A stretch of 64,000 bases of DNA from Escherichia phage vB_Ec-G1: sequence record PQ433349.1. One strand, given 5' to 3'. Under the pieces are notes generated by a model, which ran no database searches, was not told where the DNA came from, and was given only the letters and a program-made list of their open reading frames with translations. Within the stretch, counting starts at the first letter, position 1, and each line of letters starts with the position of its first letter. Below are positions 5,239 to 55,693 of the stretch, piece after piece. A program made the position numbers and the translations under genes.

Positions 5239-5313
5239 GGCCCTGTAGCTCAATGGGAGAGCTGTCGGCTCATAACCGATAGGTAGCTGGATCGAAACCA
5301 GCCAGGGCCACCA
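5239..5313 (+). tRNA. tRNA-Met: tRNA with CAT anticodon (Met/fMet/Ile2 not distinguishable)
   Basis: acceptor GGCCCTG/CAGGGCC, D-stem GCTC/GAGC, anticodon loop CTCATAA, T-arm GCTGG-ATCGAAA-CCAGC, CCA encoded. Confidence 0.75.
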
Positions 5314-5315
5314 AC

Positions 5316-5390
5316 GTCTTTATGGTGTAATGGATAGCACAGGAGTCTTCTAAACTCTTAGTCAAGGTTCGATTCCTTGTAAAGACACCA
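5316..5390 (+). tRNA. tRNA-Arg: tRNA-Arg (anticodon TCT)
   Basis: acceptor GTCTTTA/TAAAGAC, anticodon loop CTTCTAA, T-arm CAAGG-TTCGATT-CCTTG, CCA encoded. Confidence 0.75.
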
Positions 5391-5585
5391 GAACATTTTA
5401 ACATGAATTAGCTCAAGTGATTTGAACCCACTACTGATCATGGTGGCAGAGAATGAGGCAAGTATGTCAGACATTATAAACAAAGGCCACGGTTATATTA
5501 GAAGACATAAATGCTCGAAGAGCACCGTTCGTGGAGAACGGGGGTTGGTGGAGTCACCATTCATGGTAAAATGTTTTAAAAAACT

Positions 5586-5614
5586 ATTGACAACAAACAT
5601 TATTTTATGTTAGA
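5586..5614 (+). promoter_or_regulatory. sigma70-like promoter
   Basis: TTGACA 5586-5591, 17-nt spacer, TTAGAT. Confidence 0.5.
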
Positions 5615-5622
5615 TTATAAAT

Positions 5623-5713
5623 ATGGAAGGGCAAATCGACGTGGCGACGAAAACGGTCTTGAAAACCGCCGAGCTTGAAAGAGCCTTGGGAGTTCGACTC
5701 TCCCTCCTTCCGC
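5623..5713 (+). tRNA. tRNA-Ser: tRNA-Ser (anticodon TGA), long variable arm
   Basis: acceptor GGAAGGG/TCCTTCC, anticodon loop CTTGAAA, variable hairpin GAGC-TTGAAA-GAGC, T-arm GGGAG-TTCGACT-CTCCC, CCA; D-region spacing slightly atypical. Confidence 0.6.
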
Positions 5714-5737
5714 CAGATTGGTAGATTGGTAGATTGG
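5714..5737 (+). repeat. perfect tandem repeat (GATTGGTA)x3 spanning 5' end of tRNA-Ser(GCT)
   Basis: GATTGGTAGATTGGTAGATTGGTG read directly; second copy supplies the tRNA acceptor strand. Confidence 0.8.
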
Positions 5738-5811
5738 TGAAATGGTAGCCACAACAGTTTGCTAAACTGTAGTCGGAAACGGCGTGTAGGTTCGAGTCCT
5801 ACATCTACCGC
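5726..5811 (+). tRNA. tRNA-Ser: tRNA-Ser (anticodon GCT), long variable arm
   Basis: acceptor GGTAGAT/ATCTACC, anticodon stem ACAGT/ACTGT with loop TTGCTAA, T-arm GTAGG-TTCGAGT-CCTAC, CCA. Confidence 0.7.
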
Positions 5812-5941
5812 CAAGTTCTTTTTAATATAGCTTACTTTAATAGAGTAAATTTTCGGCAGATGGCCCCCATCATCTTACCGATACCTCATAGTTAGTGGTG
5901 CGAACACTGGCTATTTTAAAAAGAATTTAAATATTAGTATT

Positions 5942-6029
5942 TAGGTGAGTTAATTCCGTAGGGGTAGCGGGGCAGACTGTAAATCTGTTATCATTGCGAT
6001 TCGGGTGGTTCGACTCCATCACTCACCAC
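5942..6029 (+). tRNA. tRNA-Tyr: tRNA-Tyr (anticodon GTA), long variable arm
   Basis: acceptor GGTGAGT/ACTCACC, anticodon arm GCAGA-CTGTAAA-TCTGT, T-arm GGTGG-TTCGACT-CCATC, CCA; anticodon arm matches E. coli tRNA-Tyr as recalled. Confidence 0.8.
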
Positions 6030-6035
6030 CAAATT

Positions 6036-6121
6036 AAGATGAGTTGGCTGAATGGTTTAAGCAGCGGACTGTTAATCCGTGTTCGAAAGAACAATATAGG
6101 TTCGAATCCTATACTCATCGC
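6036..6121 (+). tRNA. tRNA, probable anticodon GTT (Asn) but with atypical long variable arm
   Basis: perfect acceptor GATGAGT/ACTCATC, T-arm ATAGG-TTCGAAT-CCTAT, CCA; best anticodon arm GCGGA-CTGTTAA-TCCGT; 15-nt extra hairpin GTTC-GAAA-GAAC. Confidence 0.45.
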
Positions 6122-6128
6122 CAGAATT

Positions 6129-6205
6129 ATGGACTTGTAGAGTTAAGGTAAACCCCCAGTCGCCAATAGGCTTCTGGAATTGCAGGTATCGAATCCTGCC
6201 GAGTC
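6129..6205 (+). pseudogene. tRNA-like element, probably non-functional or non-canonical
   Basis: acceptor-like GGACTTG/CGAGTCC and T-arm-like GCAGG-TATCGAAT-CCTGC (8-nt loop) but no convincing anticodon arm and no CCA. Confidence 0.3.
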
Positions 6206-6211
6206 CCAGCA

Positions 6212-6286
6212 TTGCTCCTATAGTATAATGGCTATTACAACGGTTTTGTAATCCGTGGATCTCTGTTCGATTCAGTGTGGGAGCAC
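6212..6286 (+). tRNA. tRNA-Thr: tRNA-Thr (anticodon TGT)
   Basis: acceptor GCTCCTA/TGGGAGC, anticodon stem ACGG/CCGT with loop containing TTTGTAA, T-loop TTCGATT, CCA. Confidence 0.6.
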
Positions 6287-6561
6287 CAACACAACATTAA
6301 GAGCACTGTGATTGATCGTCGTATCCTGTGCACAAGGTCTGCTCGAAAGACAGTGTTCTTAGTATTGTGTTGATCACAAAAAGAGTCACCCGAAACTTGA
6401 CCGGAGTAGGGTTGGATGGGGCAAAATGAGAAGCGGCTCTCCCATCGACAGCAACGAAGAATAATATTTGACTTTGGTTTTGTATTATTTTAAGTTAGCT
6501 TACCGAACGTAGGGCTAGTCACCCAACGGGATACTCGTCACTGTCCCAATCAATAAAAGTC

Positions 6562-6591
6562 TTGACAACAAATAGTAAAATGTAGTATAGT
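6562..6591 (+). promoter_or_regulatory. sigma70-like promoter upstream of tRNA-Gly
   Basis: TTGACA 6562-6567, 18-nt spacer, TATAGT. Confidence 0.55.
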
Positions 6592-6602
6592 AAATATATA
6601 GG

Positions 6603-6676
6603 GCGTTCTTGGTGTAGCGGTAGCATTCCGTCCTTCCAAGTCGGCGGCACGAGTTCGATCCTCGTAGAACGCTCCA
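6603..6676 (+). tRNA. tRNA-Gly: tRNA-Gly (anticodon TCC)
   Basis: acceptor GCGTTCT/AGAACGC, anticodon loop CTTCCAA, T-arm ACGAG-TTCGATC-CTCGT, CCA. Confidence 0.7.
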
Positions 6677-6772
6677 AATTATTTAATAAAGGGTTGCCAG
6701 AAAACTTTCTCTTTTACTCATGGTTTTCTCCTTCTCTCACACTTCTTCTGGTTGCCCTTCATTAAATGATTT

Positions 6773-6850
6773 ATTGGTTTGTAGTGTAGTCCGGTAGCAC
6801 ACGACACTTTGACTGTCGTAGGTTTGGTTCAAATCCAGACAGACCAGCCA
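6773..6850 (+). tRNA. tRNA-Gln: tRNA-Gln (anticodon TTG)
   Basis: acceptor TGGTTTG/CAGACCA (U1-A72), anticodon arm CGACA-CTTTGAC-TGTCG, T-arm TTTGG-TTCAAAT-CCAGA, CCA. Confidence 0.7.
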
Positions 6851-6855
6851 TATAA

Positions 6856-6932
6856 CGGAGTTTAGCTCAGTTTGGTAGAGCATACGCTTTGGGAGCGTAG
6901 GGTCGCAGGTTCGAATCCTGCAATTCCGACCA
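6856..6932 (+). tRNA. tRNA-Pro: tRNA-Pro (anticodon TGG)
   Basis: acceptor CGGAGTT/AATTCCG, D-stem GCTC/GAGC, anticodon arm TACGC-TTTGGGA-GCGTA, T-arm GCAGG-TTCGAAT-CCTGC, CCA. Confidence 0.8.
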
Positions 6933-6938
6933 ATTAAA

Positions 6939-7012
6939 TGTTTCGTAGTTCAATGGTAGAACCCACGACTGATAATCGTGAGACACAAGTTCGATTCTTG
7001 TCGAAACAACCA
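6939..7012 (+). tRNA. tRNA-Ile: tRNA-Ile (anticodon GAT)
   Basis: acceptor TGTTTCG/CGAAACA, D-stem GTTC/GAAC, anticodon arm CACGA-CTGATAA-TCGTG, T-arm ACAAG-TTCGATT-CTTGT, CCA. Confidence 0.8.
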
Positions 7013-7014
7013 GT

Positions 7015-7084
7015 TTCCCGTTAGACTTACAGGATAAGAGTTCCACAGCTTATTGTGATGCTGGTTCGAATCCAGCACGGGATA
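7015..7084 (+). tRNA. tRNA-like gene, anticodon unresolved (possible pseudo-tRNA)
   Basis: T-arm GCTGG-TTCGAAT-CCAGC and acceptor TTCCCGT/ACGGGAT (1:72 mismatch) but only a 4-bp CACA/TGTG stem with 6-nt loop where the anticodon arm should be; no CCA. Confidence 0.35.
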
Positions 7085-7090
7085 CATAAT

Positions 7091-7169
7091 AGCGGGATAG
7101 AGGAGTCTGGTCGTCCTCGCCAGTTTCATATGCTGGAGATCATCGGTTCAAATCCGATTCCCGCCTCCA
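7091..7169 (+). tRNA. tRNA-Met: tRNA with CAT anticodon, second copy (1:72 mismatch, initiator-like feature)
   Basis: acceptor AGCGGGA/TCCCGCC, D-stem GAGG/CCTC, anticodon arm CCAGT-TTCATAT-GCTGG, T-arm ATCGG-TTCAAAT-CCGAT, CCA. Confidence 0.65.
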
Positions 7170-46589: not shown

Positions 46590-46619
46590 AAAGGAGCCAT
46601 TTGGCTCCTTTCTTTTATT
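46590..46619. terminator. bidirectional terminator between convergent late and replication blocks
   Basis: AAAGGAGCC-ATTT-GGCTCCTTT flanked by A-run on one side and T-run on the other. Confidence 0.7.
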
Positions 46620-46651
46620 CAGCGTTCAACCTCATACACTTGAAACAAACC

Positions 46652-47578
46652 TTAGAAGCAATGCAGGAAGTTTCTACCATATTGCAGTCCAATAGGGGCA
46701 AATGGAATATCATCATCGAAGTCCATTGGAGGTTCTTCTTGATTACTTGGTTCTGGTTGTGGTTCAGGTTTCTTCTCTTCTTTCTTCTCTTCTTTCTTAG
46801 GTTGTTCTGCGGAACCACGAATGGCAGCAGCAACTTTATCAGACAGAGCCAGAACTTTACGAGCAGAATCAATCAGATCTTCTACAGATACAGTCTTAAT
46901 GGTATGGTCTTTACAAGCATTGAGAATAGCGTGACCAACAGATGCCCCAAGATCATAATCATTAATATCAACGCCACGAGATTCAGCAATTTCAGATTTC
47001 AGCGTGACAGTTGCAGATTGAACAACCCCAGCGATATCGAAAGCATCGCCTTTAACACCATTACGAATCAGTTCCAGTGCACCATTTACTGCGTGACCAG
47101 TTTCCAGACCTACAGTATCACGTTTTTTATAGGACTGTTTAGGAGCAGCATCGTTGGAACCTTTATTGCCAGAAGATTTGTTAGACTTCTGAACACCATC
47201 GGTAGACAATACTGTAATACGAGATTTTTTAGTATTGTAGTAAGTTTTACCGCCTTTATTATCAACGCGATCAATATCAATACTTACTTCTACACCTTTT
47301 TCAATAGTGATCCAATTATCACCTTCTTTGACTTGCAGGTTTTCATAACCTTCTTTCAGTTCAATATCACCAAGAGAAATCCAAACACCTTTCTCATCTG
47401 GTTTAGCACCTTTCTCTTTCAGAACAAGAGAAGCTCGGTGAGTTGAAACAATCGTTTTTCCTTCCCAATGAAAAGTTTTAGGTTCAGCGAATTTATCCAG
47501 TTTAACGTAGTCTACGATACCAGTTGCATAAGTTACGGTTTTGCCTTTACGATCAGTTTCAGTATTAATTACGGACAT
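46652..47578 (-). CDS. ssb: single-stranded DNA-binding protein
   Basis: 308 aa; OB-fold-like N-terminus, Gly/Lys-rich linker, acidic C-terminal tail ending DFDDDIPF; RBS GAGGAGA. Confidence 0.8.
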   Translation of the reverse strand: MSVINTETDRKGKTVTYATGIVDYVKLDKFAEPKTFHWEGKTIVSTHRASLVLKEKGAKPDEKGVWISLGDIELKEGYENLQVKEGDNWITIEKGVEVSIDIDRVDNKGGKTYYNTKKSRITVLSTDGVQKSNKSSGNKGSNDAAPKQSYKKRDTVGLETGHAVNGALELIRNGVKGDAFDIAGVVQSATVTLKSEIAESRGVDINDYDLGASVGHAILNACKDHTIKTVSVEDLIDSARKVLALSDKVAAAIRGSAEQPKKEEKKEEKKPEPQPEPSNQEEPPMDFDDDIPFAPIGLQYGRNFLHCF

Positions 47579-47594
47579 TATTATCTCCTCTACA

Positions 47595-47987
47595 TTACAT
47601 TAATTTTGCACAGAAAGAGCGGAGTCTTTCCATATCATCTTGCTCTAACAGGTATTTACCTTTACCTATTCCAACTCCAATTTCACCATTAGGGAAATGA
47701 ACTATTTGCACTGGAAAACCTCCGAGTTTAATTGTGGCAGCTTTGCCTTCTTCGTCTATAACGTTTCGGATTGTATCTTGCAGTGAAATGAATTCTTTGT
47801 TTGTAACAGTGGTTTCAATTATTTCAGATGCTTCAACACGAGCAGTTAGCTTCTTGTTTCCACCTTGAATAACCAAAATCTGAAAATAAAAAGAGTTGTC
47901 AAGACCTACAACATTTTTCTCAACTAGTGTTAAACTGGTATAGTTTCCATAAACAGTTTCAACAGCTATCTTAGAACGTTCAGTCAT
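47595..47987 (-). CDS. hypothetical protein
   Basis: 130 aa. Confidence 0.5.
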   Translation of the reverse strand: MTERSKIAVETVYGNYTSLTLVEKNVVGLDNSFYFQILVIQGGNKKLTARVEASEIIETTVTNKEFISLQDTIRNVIDEEGKAATIKLGGFPVQIVHFPNGEIGVGIGKGKYLLEQDDMERLRSFCAKLM

Positions 47988-48032
47988 TGAATGCTATCCT
48001 ATCATAAAATGTTTAATATTGTCAAGCTTTAA

Positions 48033-48626
48033 TTACCAAGGAATATCATCTTCTTCTAATCTGGTATCTACTTGAGGTGGACGTGGAACCTTAACCTCTT
48101 TCACAAAACGAAGATATGGGAAACGTGTAGCAATTTTAATAACATGTTTGGCATCTTCTCTAACATCTTTGTGCAAGAAGCAGATCCCTGTTTCCAAGGT
48201 TGTTTCAAAATCTTTAGAATAATAACAGTCCTTCCCATCAAATGCAGCCTGGCAGATGGATAGATCGAACTCATTTAGAAAGGTTGTCATTACGCTTGGT
48301 TCCATAATCATAAGGTTGCAAAGCTGACCATCACGTTCAAACTCAAAAACGTGTTTAAGACCAGTAACACCCTCGTAGTTATCCGAAGCTTCTTTGTTTC
48401 CTAATTTACGAACATTAGTTCCCATCAAAGCAGATGCAATCAATTCTTGTATTTGCTCTTCTGATCGATGTGCAGGAAGAGACGTGTAAAAATCCAGATC
48501 ACGTCCAGCAATATCAAGAATACGCCAATCACGAACAGCGCCGCCAGCCAAGACAGAATTAGGATCAGCAATCTTTAATACGGTAAGAATTTCTTTGGCA
48601 ATATTGATTTGTTTTGATTTAGTCAT
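48033..48626 (-). CDS. nucleotidyltransferase (pol-beta superfamily) with SSB-like acidic C-terminal tail
   Basis: 197 aa; GGAVRD...DLDF motif; C-terminus EEDDIPW. Confidence 0.55.
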   Translation of the reverse strand: MTKSKQINIAKEILTVLKIADPNSVLAGGAVRDWRILDIAGRDLDFYTSLPAHRSEEQIQELIASALMGTNVRKLGNKEASDNYEGVTGLKHVFEFERDGQLCNLMIMEPSVMTTFLNEFDLSICQAAFDGKDCYYSKDFETTLETGICFLHKDVREDAKHVIKIATRFPYLRFVKEVKVPRPPQVDTRLEEDDIPW

Positions 48627-48837
48627 GGATACGCTCCACAGTTACTTTTACAACATCGTCCATATTAATCTCATCCCCCAAGACCTCAATAACACCTTCC
48701 TCATAAAGTCGAGCACATTCTTCCCACACTTCAGCTTCCGTCATTCCACCTGCAATCTTATTTGCAAGACCTTTAATAACATCTTCATTTTGTTCATCAA
48801 CAAGAATTGAAACATTAAAGCTCACTAATTTACGCAT
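48619..48837 (-). CDS. hypothetical protein
   Basis: 72 aa, RBS AAGGAGA. Confidence 0.5.
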   Translation of the reverse strand: MRKLVSFNVSILVDEQNEDVIKGLANKIAGGMTEAEVWEECARLYEEGVIEVLGDEINMDDVVKVTVERIHD

Positions 48838-48848
48838 TGTTTTCTCCT

Positions 48849-49015
48849 TATACTTCTAAACGGAAAGTTTCTTTAGATACAAAATCGTATCCACCTTTTT
48901 CAAGCCAGTCATTGTAAACCTCATCGGCTTGAGACTCTATCATAAAATACCGAGTGATAACTTCGTCTCCGACAATACGCACAATTTTATAGCAAATCAT
49001 GATACCATTTCCCAT
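48849..49015 (-). CDS. hypothetical small protein (not in ORF track)
   Basis: 55 codons MGNGIMICYKIVRIVGDEV...; ATG after GGAGGAAG, TAATG coupling to upstream gene. Confidence 0.4.
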
Positions 49016-49206
49016 TAATCTTCCTCCAGATCAATTTCATTATAACAATGTATGCAGAAACCATCATTGTGCATATGTTGTTCATAGGACATATCTTTAC
49101 CACAAGACCAACAACGGATATCCCCATCGTCCCATTCACGTTCTTCTTCACCTTCAAATTCATCTGGTAGGTAAGGCATACCAAGACAATCTAAATCGTA
49201 ATGCAT
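49015..49206 (-). CDS. small zinc-ribbon-like protein
   Basis: 63 aa; CWSCG...CIHCY; RBS AGGAGGAG. Confidence 0.5.
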   Translation of the reverse strand: MHYDLDCLGMPYLPDEFEGEEEREWDDGDIRCWSCGKDMSYEQHMHNDGFCIHCYNEIDLEED

Positions 49207-49219
49207 ATCTCCTCCTATA

Positions 49220-49237
49220 AAGGGGCAGAAGCCCCTT
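49220..49237 (-). terminator. hairpin downstream of DNA polymerase gene
   Basis: AAGGGGC-AGAA-GCCCCTT. Confidence 0.45.
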
Positions 49238-49254
49238 ATAAAACAATGAGTTAA

Positions 49255-52200
49255 CTAGTGACAGGACGCCCAGGAGTTACCCACATCATATCCGGCAGTA
49301 AGCTGAACATTAAGATTGTAAAATTCTCCAGCCTTAGTAACAGCTAAAGCAGCAAGTTCACCTGCCCGACTATAGGCTGTAAACCATCCACCTTTGGGAG
49401 ATTCATGAATGTTAGCCCAAATTTGCCCTGTCTCTTTTTCCTTATTATGCTTCCATTCTTCAACTTTAGCAAGGCATTCTTTATCAATTTTCTTTTGTTC
49501 TTCAGGATCGTCTACTTTCTTCCAACCTAATGATTCAGGTGAAAACCATTTAAATTCTACAAGGTTACGAGAAACTTCAAGCTGGGCTTCATCGTGATAT
49601 GCAATCATTTGTTGCACGAAGTCTTTATTCTTCCAGTCATCTTTAAAGAAGTCAACACTTAGCCCTTCTTCTTCGATCATGTCGTCATAAATAACCATTG
49701 CACGTTTAGCACAGATAACCCCACCACTTTGGAACAGAGAGTTAAGAATCGCGTGAGCAGAACGAGTAGGAACCTTACGACCGTCAATACCCAAAACATA
49801 CTGTTTACCAGTCTTAACCCAGAAATCGTTTAAACGTTCTTTAAGACGCGCCAGTGGGAATGCAGCTTCCCAGAAAGCATCGAACACCAACTGACCTGTA
49901 AACTTATCGCTACCAATTGTTTTAGCAACCTTGTCGGCTTGTGCACCATAAGTAATACCATACTTAACAGATTTAGCAGGACTACGTTCAAATTTACGTC
50001 CAATAGTTTCAGTGATACGTTTTGCCATCATTGTGTGAACATCATTAGGTTTCTCTAACAACAGAGCGTTACAATATTCATGTGGCTCCGGCTCGTACCG
50101 CCAACAGTTTCCTGTGATGGTAATGCAGTCTTTCTGACGCATGACCCACGTACCAAGTTCTGTTTGTGGACACCAAACATCCTCTACACCCCACTCTTCA
50201 ATAGTCAAACTTTGAACAGGAATGTGAGAGCGGTTAGCCAATGTTACCACTTTTACTTTCTGCTCTTTTGTATTGAAAGCTACAGAGATATTGCCTCCAT
50301 GCACCAGGTACGAGGCAGTTAAAGCTGCTTCAAAAAGTTCACCTGGGTTCTGCGCCCAACGCCAAACAGGTTTTTGTTTATGTTCATGCCAGTAACCATC
50401 TGCAATCAAGAAACCTTCCAAGAAAGCTACACGCTCGGCATGAGACATATTAACTACACGCTCTACCCACGGAACATCCCATTTACCTTGTTGAACAGAA
50501 GTTAAACTATTTACCTGATCTTGTTCCATGTTAAATGGAGCATTACAAATAATATTATCTCCTGTGCAAAGCTCGGCAGTTGTTCTGACTTTAGGCACAT
50601 AAGTATTCCCTTTACTACGGGTATTAACATACCAACGGTGATCTGCTGTTGCACGGTAAGTGTGTGATTTCCCTTTAATCTCAAACGTCTTACTATTTTT
50701 ATAGAAGACCTTACCTTTTACTTTAGTCCATTCTTTCAGACCTGTTTCAGCATTGTACCCTAAAATCTCATCCCCTTCCTTCAGGTCGTGATATCCTACC
50801 CAACCTTTACGAGTCAAAGCTTGAGCATCCATCGGCACACAGTAGTGTGACTCAATCTTTGCTTCCAAAGAGTCGAAGTCATAACCGATCTGGAAGTATT
50901 TAGGAACTTCTACACCAAACAAGTTACGCATCTCCCATCCAAACAAAGATGTGACACGAGGAATATTAGCTACAGATCTATGTTTCATACGAGAGGTTGC
51001 AGCATCACATGTAGCGGCTGGGGTAGGAATACGCCCATCTGCCCTTACTGCGGCTAAGAAACCTTTATCGTATTCTTGATCTTCTTCATCTTCTTCCCAA
51101 TCAGCACCGCCACCTAAAATAGAGTTCCTACGATGCTTATACGTTAAGTATTCTACAATCTGTGTAGCATAGGGAAATTTCTCACCCAAAGCTTGCAAAT
51201 TGGGACAGATTTCTTTTTCCTGACCTTTGGTAAAACATGGGTTAGTCAATACTTTAAGACCGCGACCTTTACCTTTTGCTATACGCTCTTGAATCTTCCT
51301 TTCCAAGGTTTCCGGTGTGCACTCCAGATGATCACAACGGTCCTGACAAAAATTAGAAGATAAAGTTTGCTCAACGTAAGCTCGAATACCTTTCTGAAGT
51401 TCTTCCTCACTCTTTTTAATCTTGGTGCCAGATTTAAGAGTCAAATCTTTATCTTTATATTCTGATGGTACCCAACCTAATCCTACAAGCCAGTTTTTAA
51501 TATGGGTTGTATCGTTCAATGTTGCAGGGATGTTAGGATCACACAGAGGCTCATCTGCTGCAACTGGCAGTTTCCACTCTTTCCCCAACATAACTAACCA
51601 CCAATCGCCATCCCTCTCTTCCAAATGACCATCATGTTTCTTAGCAAAATTGATCATATGGTTAGTTGGTTCTAGGTTCTTTTTAATTTGCAATTTAGGC
51701 GGAATAAAAGCTTTAAGATAACCTTTTGTTGCTGGTTTAGGTGGCAAAATAGGCTCAACGAGTAAACGAAGACGCTCCATTTCTGCATCCAAAAAAGCAA
51801 GGTTCTCTTCTGCTTGTTTCATGTTAAAAGCAAACCCACGGTGTTCCTGGCGTGTAATAATGTCTGCTACACGTTGTTCAAGTTCAAATGGACCTTCCCA
51901 TTTATCATAATCACCCCATTCTTCCATAAGGTAATTATATACGCTCGTATTGGCTTTGTTGTCATAGATACAGTAATAAAGCATATCCGCAGCAAAAGTC
52001 TTAAATCGATCTTCTTCTGGAATCTCTTTACGGAAATCTATTTTTACATCACCACCTGCTTTTCGAGAAAGTGCTGCCAAGCTATGTCCTGATTTGCCCT
52101 CAATCTTTCGATCTGGGTTTAACACTTTACTCAAAATCAAGGAGTCAATAAGTTTTACCTTATTTTTGCCCCACGTATTATATTTAACACTGTAATCTAA

Positions 52201-52587
52201 TCCATAAAACAGTTTTGTAGCCAACCAGTCGTAGTTGATACCGTTGTGAGCCACAGCCATTTCAACCAGATATTCAGGCTTGTCTTTAAAATAACCTTCA
52301 TGATTAATAAAATCTGGGAAATCTTTTAGTTGAAAATGCGTGTAATCTTGCGCCACATACTCTTTAAGAACATATGTGTATTTACCATCTGACTCTTCAT
52401 AAGGACGCCCATCAAAGATGTATTTAGGGCCATCGTGGAAAGCTACTATTTCTCCTGTTTCATGGTTCTCTAAGACAATACAGTGCATTTGAAATGTGTC
52501 TTTGAGACGATAAGGACTAGCTAAATAATCAATAGTGTCATTATTCAACAATCCGTTTGCTTCAATATCCCATGTAAACTTACTCAC
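49255..52587 (-). CDS. family A DNA polymerase with 3'-5' exonuclease domain, intein-containing precursor
   Basis: 1110 aa; exo motif DIEANGL; motif A GYDFDSLEAKIESHY, motif B RSPAKSVKYGITYG, motif C YHDEAQLEV; GTG start after AAAGGAGG. Confidence 0.9.
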   Translation of the reverse strand: MSKFTWDIEANGLLNNDTIDYLASPYRLKDTFQMHCIVLENHETGEIVAFHDGPKYIFDGRPYEESDGKYTYVLKEYVAQDYTHFQLKDFPDFINHEGYFKDKPEYLVEMAVAHNGINYDWLATKLFYGLDYSVKYNTWGKNKVKLIDSLILSKVLNPDRKIEGKSGHSLAALSRKAGGDVKIDFRKEIPEEDRFKTFAADMLYYCIYDNKANTSVYNYLMEEWGDYDKWEGPFELEQRVADIITRQEHRGFAFNMKQAEENLAFLDAEMERLRLLVEPILPPKPATKGYLKAFIPPKLQIKKNLEPTNHMINFAKKHDGHLEERDGDWWLVMLGKEWKLPVAADEPLCDPNIPATLNDTTHIKNWLVGLGWVPSEYKDKDLTLKSGTKIKKSEEELQKGIRAYVEQTLSSNFCQDRCDHLECTPETLERKIQERIAKGKGRGLKVLTNPCFTKGQEKEICPNLQALGEKFPYATQIVEYLTYKHRRNSILGGGADWEEDEEDQEYDKGFLAAVRADGRIPTPAATCDAATSRMKHRSVANIPRVTSLFGWEMRNLFGVEVPKYFQIGYDFDSLEAKIESHYCVPMDAQALTRKGWVGYHDLKEGDEILGYNAETGLKEWTKVKGKVFYKNSKTFEIKGKSHTYRATADHRWYVNTRSKGNTYVPKVRTTAELCTGDNIICNAPFNMEQDQVNSLTSVQQGKWDVPWVERVVNMSHAERVAFLEGFLIADGYWHEHKQKPVWRWAQNPGELFEAALTASYLVHGGNISVAFNTKEQKVKVVTLANRSHIPVQSLTIEEWGVEDVWCPQTELGTWVMRQKDCITITGNCWRYEPEPHEYCNALLLEKPNDVHTMMAKRITETIGRKFERSPAKSVKYGITYGAQADKVAKTIGSDKFTGQLVFDAFWEAAFPLARLKERLNDFWVKTGKQYVLGIDGRKVPTRSAHAILNSLFQSGGVICAKRAMVIYDDMIEEEGLSVDFFKDDWKNKDFVQQMIAYHDEAQLEVSRNLVEFKWFSPESLGWKKVDDPEEQKKIDKECLAKVEEWKHNKEKETGQIWANIHESPKGGWFTAYSRAGELAALAVTKAGEFYNLNVQLTAGYDVGNSWASCH
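50107..50841 (-). mobile_element. intein (245 aa) with LAGLIDADG-type homing endonuclease motif in DNA polymerase
   Basis: insert starts Cys583 right after motif A, has TxxH-like TADH, LEGFLIADG, ends ...ITITGN827 followed by Cys828; separates motifs A and B. Confidence 0.75.
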
Positions 52588-53888: not shown

Positions 53889-53916
53889 TATTTTTAATAA
53901 AAGGGCCGAAGCCCTT
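53889..53916 (-). terminator. terminator hairpin at primase-helicase stop codon
   Basis: AAGGGC-CGAA-GCCCTT overlapping stop, T/A-rich tract on minus strand. Confidence 0.55.
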
Positions 53917-55693
53917 AATAGTTGCTATCCGTAGGCAAATTAGCAGGATTGTTGAAATACTGCTCTTTGTCATGCAGAGTTGCAGTTCTAATATCATAGT
54001 AAAACTGCCCTGCTGGACCAGTTTCCGAGAACTCACGGTTTTTTAGGATAAAGCAATGAGTCGTATTGCGTTCTACAGGGTCTTCAGCGGCTTTATCTCG
54101 TTCCAAAGCCAAGGTAATACCAGCACCTTTAGCCAAGAAACTACTACCCATTGCATCGTCCTCTGTTAAGTGTTCATTGCCACCATTAGCCGATTTCTTA
54201 ACGTGTGAGATGACGATAATAGTTATAGCATACTCTTTCATGATGCGCTTCAACCATGTTGCTAACTCTTCCTGGGCTTGAACATCCATACCAGAAAGCA
54301 AATCAGAATAAGGGTCGATAACAAGAATTGTTACTCCAAAATAGATGATCATCTCCAAAACTTTTTCTTTGATAGACTCCACATCTGCTCCACGATCATC
54401 ACACACATAAAAACGTGGTGATCCATCTTCTCTTTCGTAAAAATCTAGGATTTTTTCTTTATTCTCTTCCAAGATTTGAAATTTCTCTTCCGGTGTTTTC
54501 CTGTGTAGAGGAATATGCAGGAACGAGGACAACAGGTTACGAGAATATTTCTTATAAGTTGCTTCCAAGGACAGAATACCTAGGGTATGTTCTGGGTGCG
54601 CAACAATAATATGTTTGGTGATCTCGTTCACCATCAAAGTTTTACCGATACTGGTCTTTGCCAGGATGACTGTAATCTCTTCCTCTACTAAACCACCACC
54701 CAGCATATTTGCAGCAACACGCATAAAAGGAGGCAAGGTAATCATCTTGGATTCCAAGCATTCTAATGCAGCTTCATACAAGACATTAGAAGCATAAACA
54801 CCTGCTGGGGTGTATAGACGAGCACTCCAAAAAGCTTTTACGAAATCTTTTGCACGACCTTCTTCCAGATACTGATTGGCATCCTTAAGATCCATCTGCA
54901 TACGGTAGACTTTGTTACGAGGCAGCACCTTAACAATATTTTCAAATGCCTCATTACCTGCTTTGTCATTATCCATGCAAACAATAATCTTCTTAAATTT
55001 TTCAAAGAAAGGGTATTGTGCCTGAACTTGTTTATACATACTGGTTTCACCAGTTGTGCCACTAACTACTGCTGGAAGTTCATATTTGTTGTCCAAGTTT
55101 TCAGACAGCATTTGATAAGCTGCCAGAGCATCGTGTTCACCACCTGTAATTACCACAGTATGAGAACGGTCTGCAAAACGGATTTGTCCAAAAAGATCTA
55201 CATCTTTACCTACTTGACCAATAGGTTTACTGAAATCTTTAGGATGAATACGACGCTTAAAACCAACCAATTCTTTACCGATAGTAGTTGGATATAAACA
55301 ACTTTCTACTACCATCTGATCCCCTTCCTGACGGTATTCATAACGAACACCATAGAAAGATGAAACTTTTTCTTTAATGCCTCGATAACCACGTGGGTTG
55401 GTTGATGTTTCTTGAACAATTTTACGATGAATCTGTTTATTAAATTCCGAACCCACAATCTCCTCCTCTTCTTCTAAAACTTCACCATTTTCTCGTAACC
55501 ATTCTACGCTAGGAATAGTGTATTCACACGCAAAGCACTTAGCACCTTTATGCTCTCCATTAGAATCTAATCCATAAACCATCAGGTTATTACGAGAGCG
55601 ATCCTTGCCATTTTTCATGCAGCGCGGACAACCTGTATGCCCTTCCTTGCTAAGATCAACATCAAATCCATATTTAGTTATAATGTGCGACAC
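53915..55693 (-). CDS. bifunctional primase-helicase (T7 gp4-like)
   Basis: 592 aa; N-terminal zinc ribbon CPRC...CFAC, TOPRIM-like region, helicase Walker A AKTSIGKT and Walker B LVIDPYSD; GTG start. Confidence 0.85.
   Translation of the reverse strand: MSHIITKYGFDVDLSKEGHTGCPRCMKNGKDRSRNNLMVYGLDSNGEHKGAKCFACEYTIPSVEWLRENGEVLEEEEEIVGSEFNKQIHRKIVQETSTNPRGYRGIKEKVSSFYGVRYEYRQEGDQMVVESCLYPTTIGKELVGFKRRIHPKDFSKPIGQVGKDVDLFGQIRFADRSHTVVITGGEHDALAAYQMLSENLDNKYELPAVVSGTTGETSMYKQVQAQYPFFEKFKKIIVCMDNDKAGNEAFENIVKVLPRNKVYRMQMDLKDANQYLEEGRAKDFVKAFWSARLYTPAGVYASNVLYEAALECLESKMITLPPFMRVAANMLGGGLVEEEITVILAKTSIGKTLMVNEITKHIIVAHPEHTLGILSLEATYKKYSRNLLSSFLHIPLHRKTPEEKFQILEENKEKILDFYEREDGSPRFYVCDDRGADVESIKEKVLEMIIYFGVTILVIDPYSDLLSGMDVQAQEELATWLKRIMKEYAITIIVISHVKKSANGGNEHLTEDDAMGSSFLAKGAGITLALERDKAAEDPVERNTTHCFILKNREFSETGPAGQFYYDIRTATLHDKEQYFNNPANLPTDSNY

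What the first reader, a model, noticed from the sequence alone, without database searches (positions are those of the whole stretch)
48033..48626. Nucleotidyltransferase ending in an SSB-like acidic tail
A pol-beta-superfamily nucleotidyltransferase (GGAVRD...DLDF, like the head domain of CCA-adding or poly(A)-type enzymes) ends in EEDDIPW. That resembles the DDDIPF tail of the SSB encoded about 500 bp away, which in bacteria is the docking peptide for partner proteins. The enzyme might mimic or compete for SSB-tail binding sites, or repair tRNA 3' ends.
Basis: inference. Interest (0 to 1): 0.45.

Follow-up and report, generated by a model that had tools for sequence, protein, structure and literature searches.

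The report
Phage nucleotidyltransferase with SSB-like docking tail
A small, probably active nucleotide-adding enzyme in the DNA-replication operon of a phAPEC8-like coliphage ends in a conserved flexible tail (DDIPW) that copies the docking peptide of bacterial SSB, so it is more likely delivered to replication or repair proteins, perhaps for counter-defence, than used to mend tRNA ends.

Summary
ORF 48033-48626 (-) encodes a 197-aa protein with GGAVRD, DLDF and a C-terminal EEDDIPW. The window is a Phapecoctavirus, and GenBank already annotates this gene as "nucleotidyltransferase".

The DDIPW tip is 96% conserved in relatives whose linker is only 53% conserved. It persists at 34% domain identity and recurs in an unrelated phage lineage. 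In the window only this protein and SSB carry the motif.

The family has about 1000 clusters and appears phage-restricted. It sits beside T7-type primase-helicase and PolA genes, not tRNA genes. It is homologous to the NTase domain of the anti-Gabija protein Gad2 (hhalign 97.6%).

All ten phage tRNAs encode CCA and the tRNA-binding domains are absent, so tRNA repair is poorly supported.

Best reading: a Gad2-like enzyme tethered to an SSB-tail-type docking peptide. Its partner and substrate are untested.

In this window the SSB's own DDDIPF is not terminal: a conserved 15-residue extension follows it.

The parts
48033..48626 (-). Whole ORF of the 197-aa nucleotidyltransferase, including the stop codon (48033-48035)
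   Evidence: ORF list. 98-100% identical genes in 64+ Phapecoctavirus records are annotated 'nucleotidyltransferase' or 'putative tRNA nucleotidyl transferase / poly(A) polymerase'. phrog_10174 E 3e-63.
48093..48626 (-). Folded NTase domain, residues 1-178 (head plus part of the neck of class II CCA/PAP-type enzymes)
48528..48545 (-). Motif A, first half: G28-G29-A-V-R32-D33 (W34 follows)
   Evidence: G28 and G29 are invariant, and A30, R32, D33 and W34 are >=90% conserved, in 136 family members. This stretch aligns to the GGxVRD motif of CCA-adding enzymes and PAP.
48489..48500 (-). Motif A, second half: D43-L-D45-F, the two catalytic carboxylates
   Evidence: D43 and D45 are invariant in 136 sequences.
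48051..48092 (-). Disordered linker, residues 179-192 (KVPRPPQVDTRLEE)
   Evidence: pLDDT falls to 70 and then 51 over the last 20 residues, with no secondary structure. Length and sequence vary among close homologues, with 53% identity to the reference.
48036..48050 (-). C-terminal docking-type peptide D193-D-I-P-W197, SSB-Ct-like
   Evidence: 96% conserved across homologues of 59-99% identity. Retained in P0016 at 34% domain identity with the same synteny. Recurs in P0118 in a different genomic context.
46652..47578 (-). Phage SSB, 308 aa (phrog_4477; only the C-terminal region resembles bacterial SSB)
   Evidence: NCBIfam PRK09010 matches residues 255-293 only. PDB SSB chains match residues 268-293 only. 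Annotated as SSB in Mt1B1_P17.
46700..46717 (-). DDDIPF inside the SSB (residues 288-293), within PPMDFDDDIPF
46655..46699 (-). 15-residue extension APIGLQYGRNFLHCF after the SSB tail
   Evidence: Present here, in Mt1B1_P17 and in phi92, where 7 codons differ synonymously and none non-synonymously. Absent in L005, L087, phiWec179 and KP2025. Similar extensions occur on canonical SSBs of phages mEpX2 and F27.
47595..47987 (-). Conserved 130-aa gene of unknown function between the NTase and SSB (phrog_16560)
   Evidence: Synteny NTase - p130 - SSB is kept in phi92, KP2025, phiWec179, L007-L015, L093 and L097. No Pfam, PADLOC or PDB match.
49255..52587 (-). Family A DNA polymerase (1110 aa, with a 245-aa insertion), upstream in the same operon
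   Evidence: PF00476 E 2e-11. 100% identical to the 865-aa Mt1B1_P17 polymerase except for an insertion at residues 584-827.
53915..55693 (-). T7 gp4-type primase-helicase (Toprim + DnaB_C), same operon
   Evidence: Pfam Toprim_2 3.6e-9 and DnaB_C 2.3e-15.

Best explanation
The gene encodes a stand-alone nucleotidyltransferase with all catalytic residues intact. It consists of the head and part of the neck of a class II CCA-adding/poly(A)-polymerase-type enzyme.

It belongs to a large family that appears phage-restricted and is homologous to the NTase domain of the anti-Gabija protein Gad2. The gene is expressed from the phage replication operon (primase-helicase, PolA, NTase, p130, SSB).

A disordered linker of about 14 residues ends in an acidic peptide with a free aromatic C-terminus, EEDDIPW-COOH. 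This follows the rules of the bacterial SSB C-terminal tip.

Inferred mechanism: the tail works as a docking peptide. It plugs into the same kind of site that reads SSB tails, either on the phage's T7-like replisome proteins (as the T7 gp2.5 and gp4 tails do on T7 DNA polymerase) or on host SSB-interacting enzymes. This would concentrate the enzyme at SSB-coated ssDNA and replication forks. There it would transfer nucleotides to a local target, most likely for counter-defence or DNA-end chemistry rather than CCA addition to tRNA.

Shown here: the fold, the catalytic motifs, the disorder and conservation of the tail, the genomic association, and the homology to Gad2. Inferred: the binding partner, the substrate and the biological role.

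For: Catalysis: G28, G29, D43 and D45 are invariant in 136 members. R32, D33, W34, Y84 and K164 are >=90% conserved.

Tail: it is disordered. It is 96% conserved against 53% for the linker. Only SSB and this protein carry the motif in the window. The tail is kept at 34% domain identity in P0016 and was apparently acquired independently in P0118 and P0159. 5 of 146 family representatives end in an SSB-Ct-like peptide, against 4 of 744 neighbouring genes (Fisher p = 0.008).

Context: among 43 dereplicated lineages, 27 have a gp4-type primase-helicase within 5 kb, 19 have PolA and 8 have a 5'-3' exonuclease. tRNA genes lie within 8 kb in only 6 of 85 loci.

Shared tails: in other NTase-bearing phages, gp2.5-like SSBs, a primase-helicase and a replication initiator all end in acidic-xP[F] peptides.

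T7 precedent: the acidic tail and terminal Phe of gp2.5 mediate binding to T7 polymerase and helicase (bioRxiv 10.64898/2026.02.22.705581).

Gad2 link: PF26128 hits at E<=1e-5 on core family members P0175 and P0161. hhalign of the family against 9 Gad2 homologues gives 97.6% probability, E 3.4e-12, over 123 columns. Gad2 is an experimentally validated anti-Gabija protein with a predicted NTase domain (bioRxiv 10.1101/2023.05.01.538930).

Phage restriction: only 6 loci, all in MAGs, were found across one genome for each of 185,579 species.
Against: No binding or activity data exist.

The terminal residue is Trp, not the Phe that canonical SSB-Ct pockets are known to accept.

Sister genera with the same synteny have different tails (phi92 NNEEFKI, KP2025 NAWDDL, L007 EFMDEI, L011-15 DVFNF) although their SSBs end in DDDIPF. 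The SSB-like form is therefore not required for the family's core function. About 90% of family members have no such tail.

The NTase domain is acidic (pI 5.4), which is unusual for a general nucleic-acid binder.

The Gad2 relation is remote and limited to the NTase domain. This protein's closest relatives give only 'faint' PF26128 hits, and it lacks Gad2's ~250-aa C-terminal region.

Placement in a replication operon may reflect expression timing rather than function.
Confidence: 0.5

Rival explanations
1. tRNA 3'-end repair or CCA-adding enzyme. The protein would restore CCA ends of host or phage tRNAs, for example after attack by defence nucleases. The tail would be incidental.
For: The closest solved structures are CCA-, CC- and A-adding enzymes. 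GenBank annotators call it 'putative tRNA nucleotidyl transferase / poly(A) polymerase'. The phage carries 10 tRNA genes. A motif-D-like stretch, E157-D158-A-K-H161...R168-F169, resembles the EDxxR...RF of class II enzymes; the consensus is recalled from memory and the alignment is by eye.
Against: The protein has only 197 aa and no body or tail domains to bind tRNA. Pfam PolyA_pol scores 15.5 bits against a cutoff of 23 and covers motif A only. The family position matching the base-templating Arg is His or Tyr, and the Asp is not conserved. All 10 phage tRNAs encode CCA. Family genes lie near tRNA genes in only 6 of 85 loci but near replication genes in most. The conserved tail is left unexplained.
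Confidence: 0.1
2. SSB-tail decoy. The main job of the protein would be to occupy SSB-Ct pockets on host genome-maintenance or defence proteins, blocking their recruitment to phage ssDNA. The NTase domain would act as a scaffold, or would covalently nucleotidylate the captured protein.
For: The free C-terminal acidic-IP-aromatic peptide is conserved. In this phage the SSB's own DDDIPF is masked by an extension, so the NTase is the only protein found in the window that presents such a free tip. Phage SSBs are frequent triggers of defence systems (abstracts listed).
Against: The catalytic residues are invariant across about 1000 clusters, most of which have no tail, so the enzyme activity is the conserved function. 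Close relatives (L005, L087) combine the same NTase tail with an unmasked SSB tail. A monovalent tail would compete poorly against tetrameric SSB, and Trp replaces Phe.
Confidence: 0.15
3. Host shut-off toxin of the MenT/AbiEii kind. The NTase would add nucleotides to host tRNA acceptor ends or other RNAs to arrest host translation.
Against: Structural similarity to MenT is much weaker than to class II enzymes. Toxicity of distant relatives on overexpression is not specific. The replication-module placement and the tail are not explained. No family membership was shown for Emajogi gp22.
Confidence: 0.07
4. The tail resemblance has no function. It would be a lineage-specific leftover, for example of recombination with an SSB 3' end.
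For: Sister genera have other C-termini. Eleven nucleotides (GATGATATTCC) are shared with the SSB tail-coding sequence.
Against: The tail is 96% conserved next to a 53% conserved linker. It is retained at 34% domain identity and recurs in unrelated contexts. Chance expectation is 0.0025 per window.
Confidence: 0.1

Closest known systems
Class II CCA-adding enzymes and bacterial poly(A) polymerase I (Pfam PF01743 head domain; e.g. 1miv, 3h37, 3wfo, 4wby, 3aql)
   Different: Half the size, with no body or tail domains for tRNA or RNA binding. Below the Pfam threshold. Motif B and D positions are not conserved as in CCA/PAP enzymes. It carries a C-terminal docking-type peptide that those enzymes lack.
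Gad2, Gabija anti-defence protein 2 (Pfam PF26128; Yirmiya et al., bioRxiv 10.1101/2023.05.01.538930)
   Same: Homologous NTase domain (hhalign 97.6%, E 3.4e-12; PF26128 hits on core family members). Phage-encoded. Shared motifs are AGG, DxD(I/V)YF and FDF(T/S)(V/I)C.
   Different: Validated Gad2 proteins are ~400 aa with a further C-terminal region. They have GGxITSLF where this family has GGAPRDW. This protein's nearest relatives give only faint PF26128 hits. The papers found here describe no mechanism for Gad2, and anti-Gabija activity was not tested for this protein.
NP_344798.1 of Streptococcus pneumoniae (PDB 2la3), a 191-aa stand-alone 'CCA-adding enzyme head domain'
   Different: 13% identity and bacterial origin. 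No function is known, and no SSB-like tail was reported or checked.
C-terminal tip of bacterial SSB (SSB-Ct, ...DFDDDIPF-COOH), the docking peptide for SSB-interacting proteins
   Same: Acidic run, Ile-Pro, an aromatic last residue with a free carboxylate, and a preceding disordered linker.
   Different: It is attached to an enzyme, not an OB-fold protein. The terminal residue is Trp instead of Phe. It is monovalent, and the acidic run is shorter (EEDD).
Acidic C-terminal tails of T7 gp2.5 (SSB) and gp4 (primase-helicase), which dock on T7 DNA polymerase
   Same: A T7-type replication module: gp4-like primase-helicase and PolA. More than one protein of the module shares an acidic tail ending in an aromatic residue. 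This was also seen in L081, where both the helicase and the gp2.5-like SSB end in VPF.
   Different: No NTase is known to use this device. Binding to the phage polymerase is untested.

Membership tests
Pol-beta superfamily nucleotidyltransferase | hG[GS] ... [DE]h[DE]h catalytic pattern | tested here: met
   LAGG (residues 26-29) and DLDF (43-46). G28, G29, D43 and D45 are invariant in 136 homologues.
Pol-beta superfamily nucleotidyltransferase | Characteristic alpha/beta NTase fold | tested here: met
Pol-beta superfamily nucleotidyltransferase | Third catalytic carboxylate (h[DE]h) | tested here: inconclusive
   The candidate is E95 (VFEFE). Across the family this position is E in 81, N in 20, D in 15 and Q in 6 of 136. 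There is no residue-level structural alignment to confirm it.
Class II CCA-adding enzyme / PAP (PF01743) | Pfam PolyA_pol gathering score | tested here: not met
   15.5 bits against a cutoff of 23, residues 26-74 only. 17 of 136 family members reach E<=0.01.
Class II CCA-adding enzyme / PAP (PF01743) | Neck, body and tail domains that bind tRNA or RNA | tested here: not met
   197 aa. The ordered part ends near residue 178, whereas targets are 350-520 aa.
Class II CCA-adding enzyme / PAP (PF01743) | Motif D (EDxxR) base-templating residues | tested here: inconclusive
   E157-D158-A-K-H161 looks like EDxxR with Arg replaced by His. In the family the position is H in 80 and Y in 49, and the ED pair is not conserved. 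The consensus is recalled from memory.
Class II CCA-adding enzyme / PAP (PF01743) | CCA-adding or poly(A) activity | not testable with these tools
   Needs a biochemical assay.
Gad2 (PF26128) | Homology of the NTase domain | tested here: met
   Family profile against 9 Gad2 homologues, including the validated Brevibacillus protein: hhalign 97.6%, E 3.4e-12. PF26128 hits at E<=1e-5 on P0175 and P0161. Hits are only faint on the nearest relatives P0009 and P0016. The local Pfam copy returned no PF26128 hit.
Gad2 (PF26128) | ~400-aa architecture with a C-terminal region | tested here: not met
   197 aa. Alignment with Gad2 stops at about residue 153. Short homologues of 214-228 aa are, however, listed among Gad2 relatives.
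Gad2 (PF26128) | Inhibition of Gabija defence | not testable with these tools
   Needs plaque assays on Gabija-expressing hosts.
SSB-Ct-type docking peptide | Located at the extreme C-terminus with a free carboxylate | tested here: met
   DDIPW is followed by a stop codon.
SSB-Ct-type docking peptide | Acidic residues followed by Ile-Pro | tested here: met
   E191-E-D-D-I-P. Conserved in 10 of 11 tail-bearing relatives; P0003 has DDSFPW.
SSB-Ct-type docking peptide | Terminal phenylalanine | tested here: not met
   The terminal residue is Trp in all close relatives. Phe occurs in the distant members P0159 and P0110. phrog_862 proteins (function unknown) in L027/L028 also end in IPW or VPW.
SSB-Ct-type docking peptide | Preceded by a flexible, poorly conserved linker | tested here: met
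   pLDDT is 70 then 51 over the last 20 residues. The linker is 53% conserved against 96% for the tail.
SSB-Ct-type docking peptide | Binds the hydrophobic pocket and basic ridge of partner proteins | not testable with these tools
   No complex prediction or binding assay was available.

The most novel reading that the evidence does not exclude
The SSB-like tail is an address label that delivers a Gad2-type nucleotidyltransferase to proteins that read SSB tails at phage ssDNA. These could be host repair enzymes, or helicase-nuclease defence complexes such as Gabija's UvrD-like GajB. The enzyme would then nucleotidylate or otherwise disable its target, or cap the DNA 3' ends these proteins sense. 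That would be a peptide-guided anti-defence enzyme and would give a first mechanistic handle on how Gad2-family proteins work.
Probability: 0.12. Interest if true: 0.8.

Novelty: new variant of a known kind. Interest (0 to 1): 0.47.

Why it matters
Small stand-alone nucleotidyltransferases are common in virulent phages with T7-type replication modules. One relative, Gad2, defeats the widespread Gabija defence, and the papers found here describe no mechanism for it.

A subset of these enzymes carries a conserved copy of the SSB docking peptide. That points to where they may act (SSB-coated ssDNA and the proteins recruited there) and offers a simple experiment: tail deletion or peptide binding.

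It would also extend the "shared acidic tail" logic of the T7 replisome to an accessory enzyme. It would add a case of a phage borrowing the bacterial SSB interaction code.

If the tail proves inert, the gene remains an ordinary, already annotated phage nucleotidyltransferase.

Tried and rejected
- **First AF2 run.** With 13 sequences the model was poor (pLDDT 61.6). It was replaced by a run with 136 sequences.
- **Sequence searches of PDB.** The 13-sequence profile found nothing relevant. The 136-sequence profile found only motif-A matches (E 0.0016-0.18).
- **Other libraries.** PADLOC gave no hit. NCBIfam gave only sub-threshold CCA/PcnB matches. The afdb50 fold library was unavailable.
- **fHe-Kpn01 Gp22.** I tried to link this toxic small NTase (PMC7291057) to the family via the related phage KP34. 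KP34 has no family member in the region searched, so the link is unverified.
- **PF26128 (Gad2) hits.** I tried to reproduce the precomputed hits with the local Pfam copy and none were returned. I relied instead on the marked precomputed hits and on my own profile-profile comparison with Gad2 sequences taken from the paper's supplement.
- **Pairwise BLASTP against Gad2.** Not significant.
- **Literature.** Searches for an SSB-tail mimic on a phage enzyme, for the 2la3 protein, and for functional data on the Phapecoctavirus NTase found nothing specific.
- **Toxin-antitoxin idea.** I considered that NTase and p130 form a pair of the MNT-HEPN type. I rejected it because p130 has no HEPN signature or family hit, and p130 was detected by BLAST only in the Stephanstirmvirinae-like clade, in 4 of 43 dereplicated lineages.
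- **OLD-type tRNA damage.** I considered repair of this damage. The reported cuts are at tRNA positions 27-29, not at CCA.

Full report
**What is there.** The window is a Phapecoctavirus (phAPEC8-like, Stephanstirmvirinae). Region 46600-49250 is 97-99% identical to ZCKP1, phAPEC8 and about 60 other coliphages. ORF 48033-48626 on the minus strand encodes 197 aa. It has a GGAG ribosome-binding site, and its start overlaps the upstream ORF by 8 nt. The sequence shows GGAVRD (residues 28-33), DLDF (43-46) and the C-terminus RLEEDDIPW. GenBank and RefSeq already call the gene "nucleotidyltransferase" or "putative tRNA nucleotidyl transferase / poly(A) polymerase". The enzyme call is therefore not new. 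The tail has not been remarked on in anything I could find.

**Is the tail more than chance?** Of 343 ORFs of at least 40 aa in the window, only the SSB and this protein contain D[DE][ILV]P[FW]. From the window's amino-acid composition, 0.0025 ORFs would be expected to end in [DE][DE][ILV]P[FW]. In the 11 tail-bearing sequences of alignment A1 (the query plus 10 homologues at 59-99% identity), the last five residues are 96% identical to the reference. The preceding linker is 53% identical and varies in length, and the domain is 76% identical. P0016 shares only 34% identity in the domain and lies in the same gene order (primase-helicase, PolA, small ORFs, NTase, p130). It still ends in PDDIPW. 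P0118 sits in an unrelated context of nucleotide-metabolism genes and ends in SNDIPW. P0159 ends in DDGIPF. Among 146 representatives at 50% identity, 5 end in an SSB-Ct-like peptide, against 4 of 744 neighbouring genes (Fisher p = 0.008). The tail is therefore under selection and has been gained more than once. About 90% of the family lacks it.

At sequence level the relation to class II enzymes is limited to the N-terminal helix and motif A. Pfam PolyA_pol scores 15.5 bits against a cutoff of 23, and the PDB profile search gives E 0.0016-0.18. In the family, G28, G29, D43 and D45 are invariant. Q6, A10, A27, A30, R32, D33, W34, Y84 and K164 are at least 90% conserved, so the enzyme is very probably active. 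The stretch E157-D158-A-K-H161...R168-F169 looks like motif D (EDxxR...RF, recalled from memory). However, the Arg position is His or Tyr in the family and the ED pair is not conserved. Base selection cannot be assumed to be CCA-like.

**Family and context.** The HMM search of 1.84 billion representatives gave 1033 hits, mostly stand-alone proteins of 180-220 aa. A scan of one genome for each of 185,579 prokaryotic species, using this family's motif, found only 6 loci, all in MAGs. BFVD shows many similar small "PolyA polymerase head domain" proteins in phiKMV-like and other phages.

I dereplicated the 80 IMG/VR loci to 43 lineages. Within 5 kb, 27 have a T7 gp4-type primase-helicase (phrog_239), 19 have a family A polymerase, 11 an HNH endonuclease and 8 a 5'-3' exonuclease. 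tRNA genes lie within 8 kb in only 6 of 85 loci. In the window the operon reads primase-helicase, unknown, methyltransferase-like, PolA, three small ORFs, NTase, p130, SSB.

**Link to Gad2.** About half of the best family members carry a precomputed Pfam PF26128 (Gad2) hit. The hit is at E<=1e-5 for P0175 and P0161, weak for P0118, and faint for the Phapecoctavirus branch. The local Pfam copy returned no PF26128 hit. I therefore took Gad2 sequences from the supplement of Yirmiya et al., aligned nine of them and compared profiles. hhalign gave 97.6% probability and E 3.4e-12 over 123 columns covering the NTase core. Against the validated Brevibacillus Gad2 alone it gave 88.6%. Gad2 is a ~400-aa phage protein with a predicted NTase domain that is necessary and sufficient to overcome Gabija. 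The papers found describe no mechanism for it. The window protein is thus a short, divergent relative of the Gad2 NTase domain. It lacks Gad2's C-terminal region, and anti-Gabija activity is not shown.

**tRNA repair.** This idea is weakly supported. All ten phage tRNA genes (5239-7169) already encode CCA. The protein has no tRNA-binding body or tail domains, and the family does not travel with tRNA genes. The tRNA damage recently described for OLD is internal, at positions 27-29, and is countered by resistant phage tRNAs, not by CCA repair.

**What the tail may bind.** The phage SSB is not a canonical SSB in its core (phrog_4477). Only its C-terminal region matches bacterial SSB. It contains PPMDFDDDIPF, which I recall as the E. 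coli SSB C-terminus. In other NTase-bearing phages several replisome proteins share acidic-xPF ends. These are gp2.5-like SSBs (DDSLPF, DDDIPF, DEDVPF), a primase-helicase (DDRVPF, in L081 together with its SSB) and a replication initiator (EEGLPF). phrog_862 proteins of unknown function end in DKDIPW or GDDVPW. This recalls T7, where the acidic tail and terminal Phe of gp2.5 mediate binding to the polymerase and helicase.

NTases of sister genera with the same synteny end differently: NNEEFKI, NAWDDL, EFMDEI, HWTDEI and DVFNF. All of these are acidic plus aromatic, but they are not SSB-like. That fits a degenerate acidic/aromatic docking tail that took the exact SSB-Ct form in Phapecoctavirus. 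It also shows that the SSB-like form is not essential to the family. Whether the partner is the phage replisome, host SSB-interacting proteins or the SSB OB fold could not be tested.

**Verdict.** The NTase assignment is correct but already annotated. The tail is a real, selected, SSB-Ct-type peptide on an enzyme, which I did not find described. The most likely reading (about 0.5) is a Gad2-like nucleotidyltransferase tethered to the SSB-tail interaction network at replication forks. Its substrate is unknown, and a counter-defence role is suggested only by homology. I rate it a new variant of a known kind, of moderate interest.

**In passing.** In this window the SSB's DDDIPF is followed by APIGLQYGRNFLHCF. 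The same peptide occurs in phi92, where 7 codons differ synonymously and none non-synonymously. Relatives with 98-100% identical NTase genes stop right after IPF. Similar extensions sit on canonical SSBs of the lambdoid phage mEpX2 (APVTLPFPRHAIHAI) and Vibrio phage F27 (APVGLQYGKKFMHVI). SSB-Ct pockets bind the terminal carboxylate (established knowledge), so this allele should alter partner binding. I have no explanation for it.

Noticed in passing
window 46655-46699 (-), after DDDIPF at 46700-46717: The SSB does not end at DDDIPF. A 15-residue extension, APIGLQYGRNFLHCF, follows. It is conserved in phi92 with only synonymous codon differences. It is absent from relatives with 98-100% identical NTase genes (L005, L087), from phiWec179 and from KP2025. 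Similar extensions (AP[IV]xLx[FY]xRxx[IL]Hx[IF]) occur on canonical SSBs of lambdoid phage mEpX2 and Vibrio phage F27, and 214 phage records cover at least 80% of the 28-aa query. It should mask the free carboxylate that SSB-tail pockets bind. Its function is unknown.
   Followed up: partly
window about 50104-50838 (-), inside the DNA polymerase gene 49255-52587: The PolA is 1110 aa. It is 100% identical to the 865-aa Mt1B1_P17 polymerase over residues 1-583 and 828-1110. A 245-aa insertion lies between them. It starts with Cys after ESHY, contains a LAGLIDADG-like FLEGFLIADGYW, and ends GN followed by Cys. This looks like an intein with a homing endonuclease. Pfam did not detect it at E<0.001.
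   Followed up: partly
window 5239-7169 (+): A cluster of 10 tRNA genes, all with encoded CCA. The set includes Thr(UGU), Gly(UCC), Met(CAU) and Pro(UGG), the isoacceptors reported as targets of the P2 OLD tRNase. This fits the idea that phage tRNAs replace cleaved host tRNAs.
   Followed up: partly
window 47595-47987 (-): A 130-aa gene (phrog_16560) always sits between the NTase and SSB in Stephanstirmvirinae-like phages, at 30-99% identity. It has no family, defence-library or PDB match. It is a possible partner of either neighbour.
   Followed up: partly
L081 3062-3904 and 6199-6750; L040 5740-6216; L027 727-1416; L028 5134-5805: In other phages that carry this NTase family, several replication proteins share SSB-like ends. 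A primase-helicase (DDRVPF) and a gp2.5-like SSB (DEDVPF) occur in the same locus. A replication initiator ends in EEGLPF. phrog_862 proteins of unknown function end in DKDIPW or GDDVPW.
   Followed up: partly
Gad2 homologues in the supplement of bioRxiv 10.1101/2023.05.01.538930: Several Gad2 homologues also end in hydrophobic or aromatic C-termini after charged stretches: Paenibacillus ...DDDKCETLKPIF and ...EVKAVPIF, Schlesneria ...APYPWF, and Brevibacillus ...EDSEMNWGG. These may be tails of a similar kind. They were not analysed.
   Followed up: no
L096 5369-7633: The family member P0161, which has a strong PF26128 hit, lies immediately downstream of a phage-encoded UvrD-like helicase. 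This is notable because Gabija's GajB is also UvrD-like. It is a single case.
   Followed up: no
L001 6016-6423; L086 19551-19958: Mt1B1_P17 and ZCKP1 carry an extra endonuclease gene between SSB and the tail genes. It is absent from this window, so the SSB 3' flank is a variable site.
   Followed up: no
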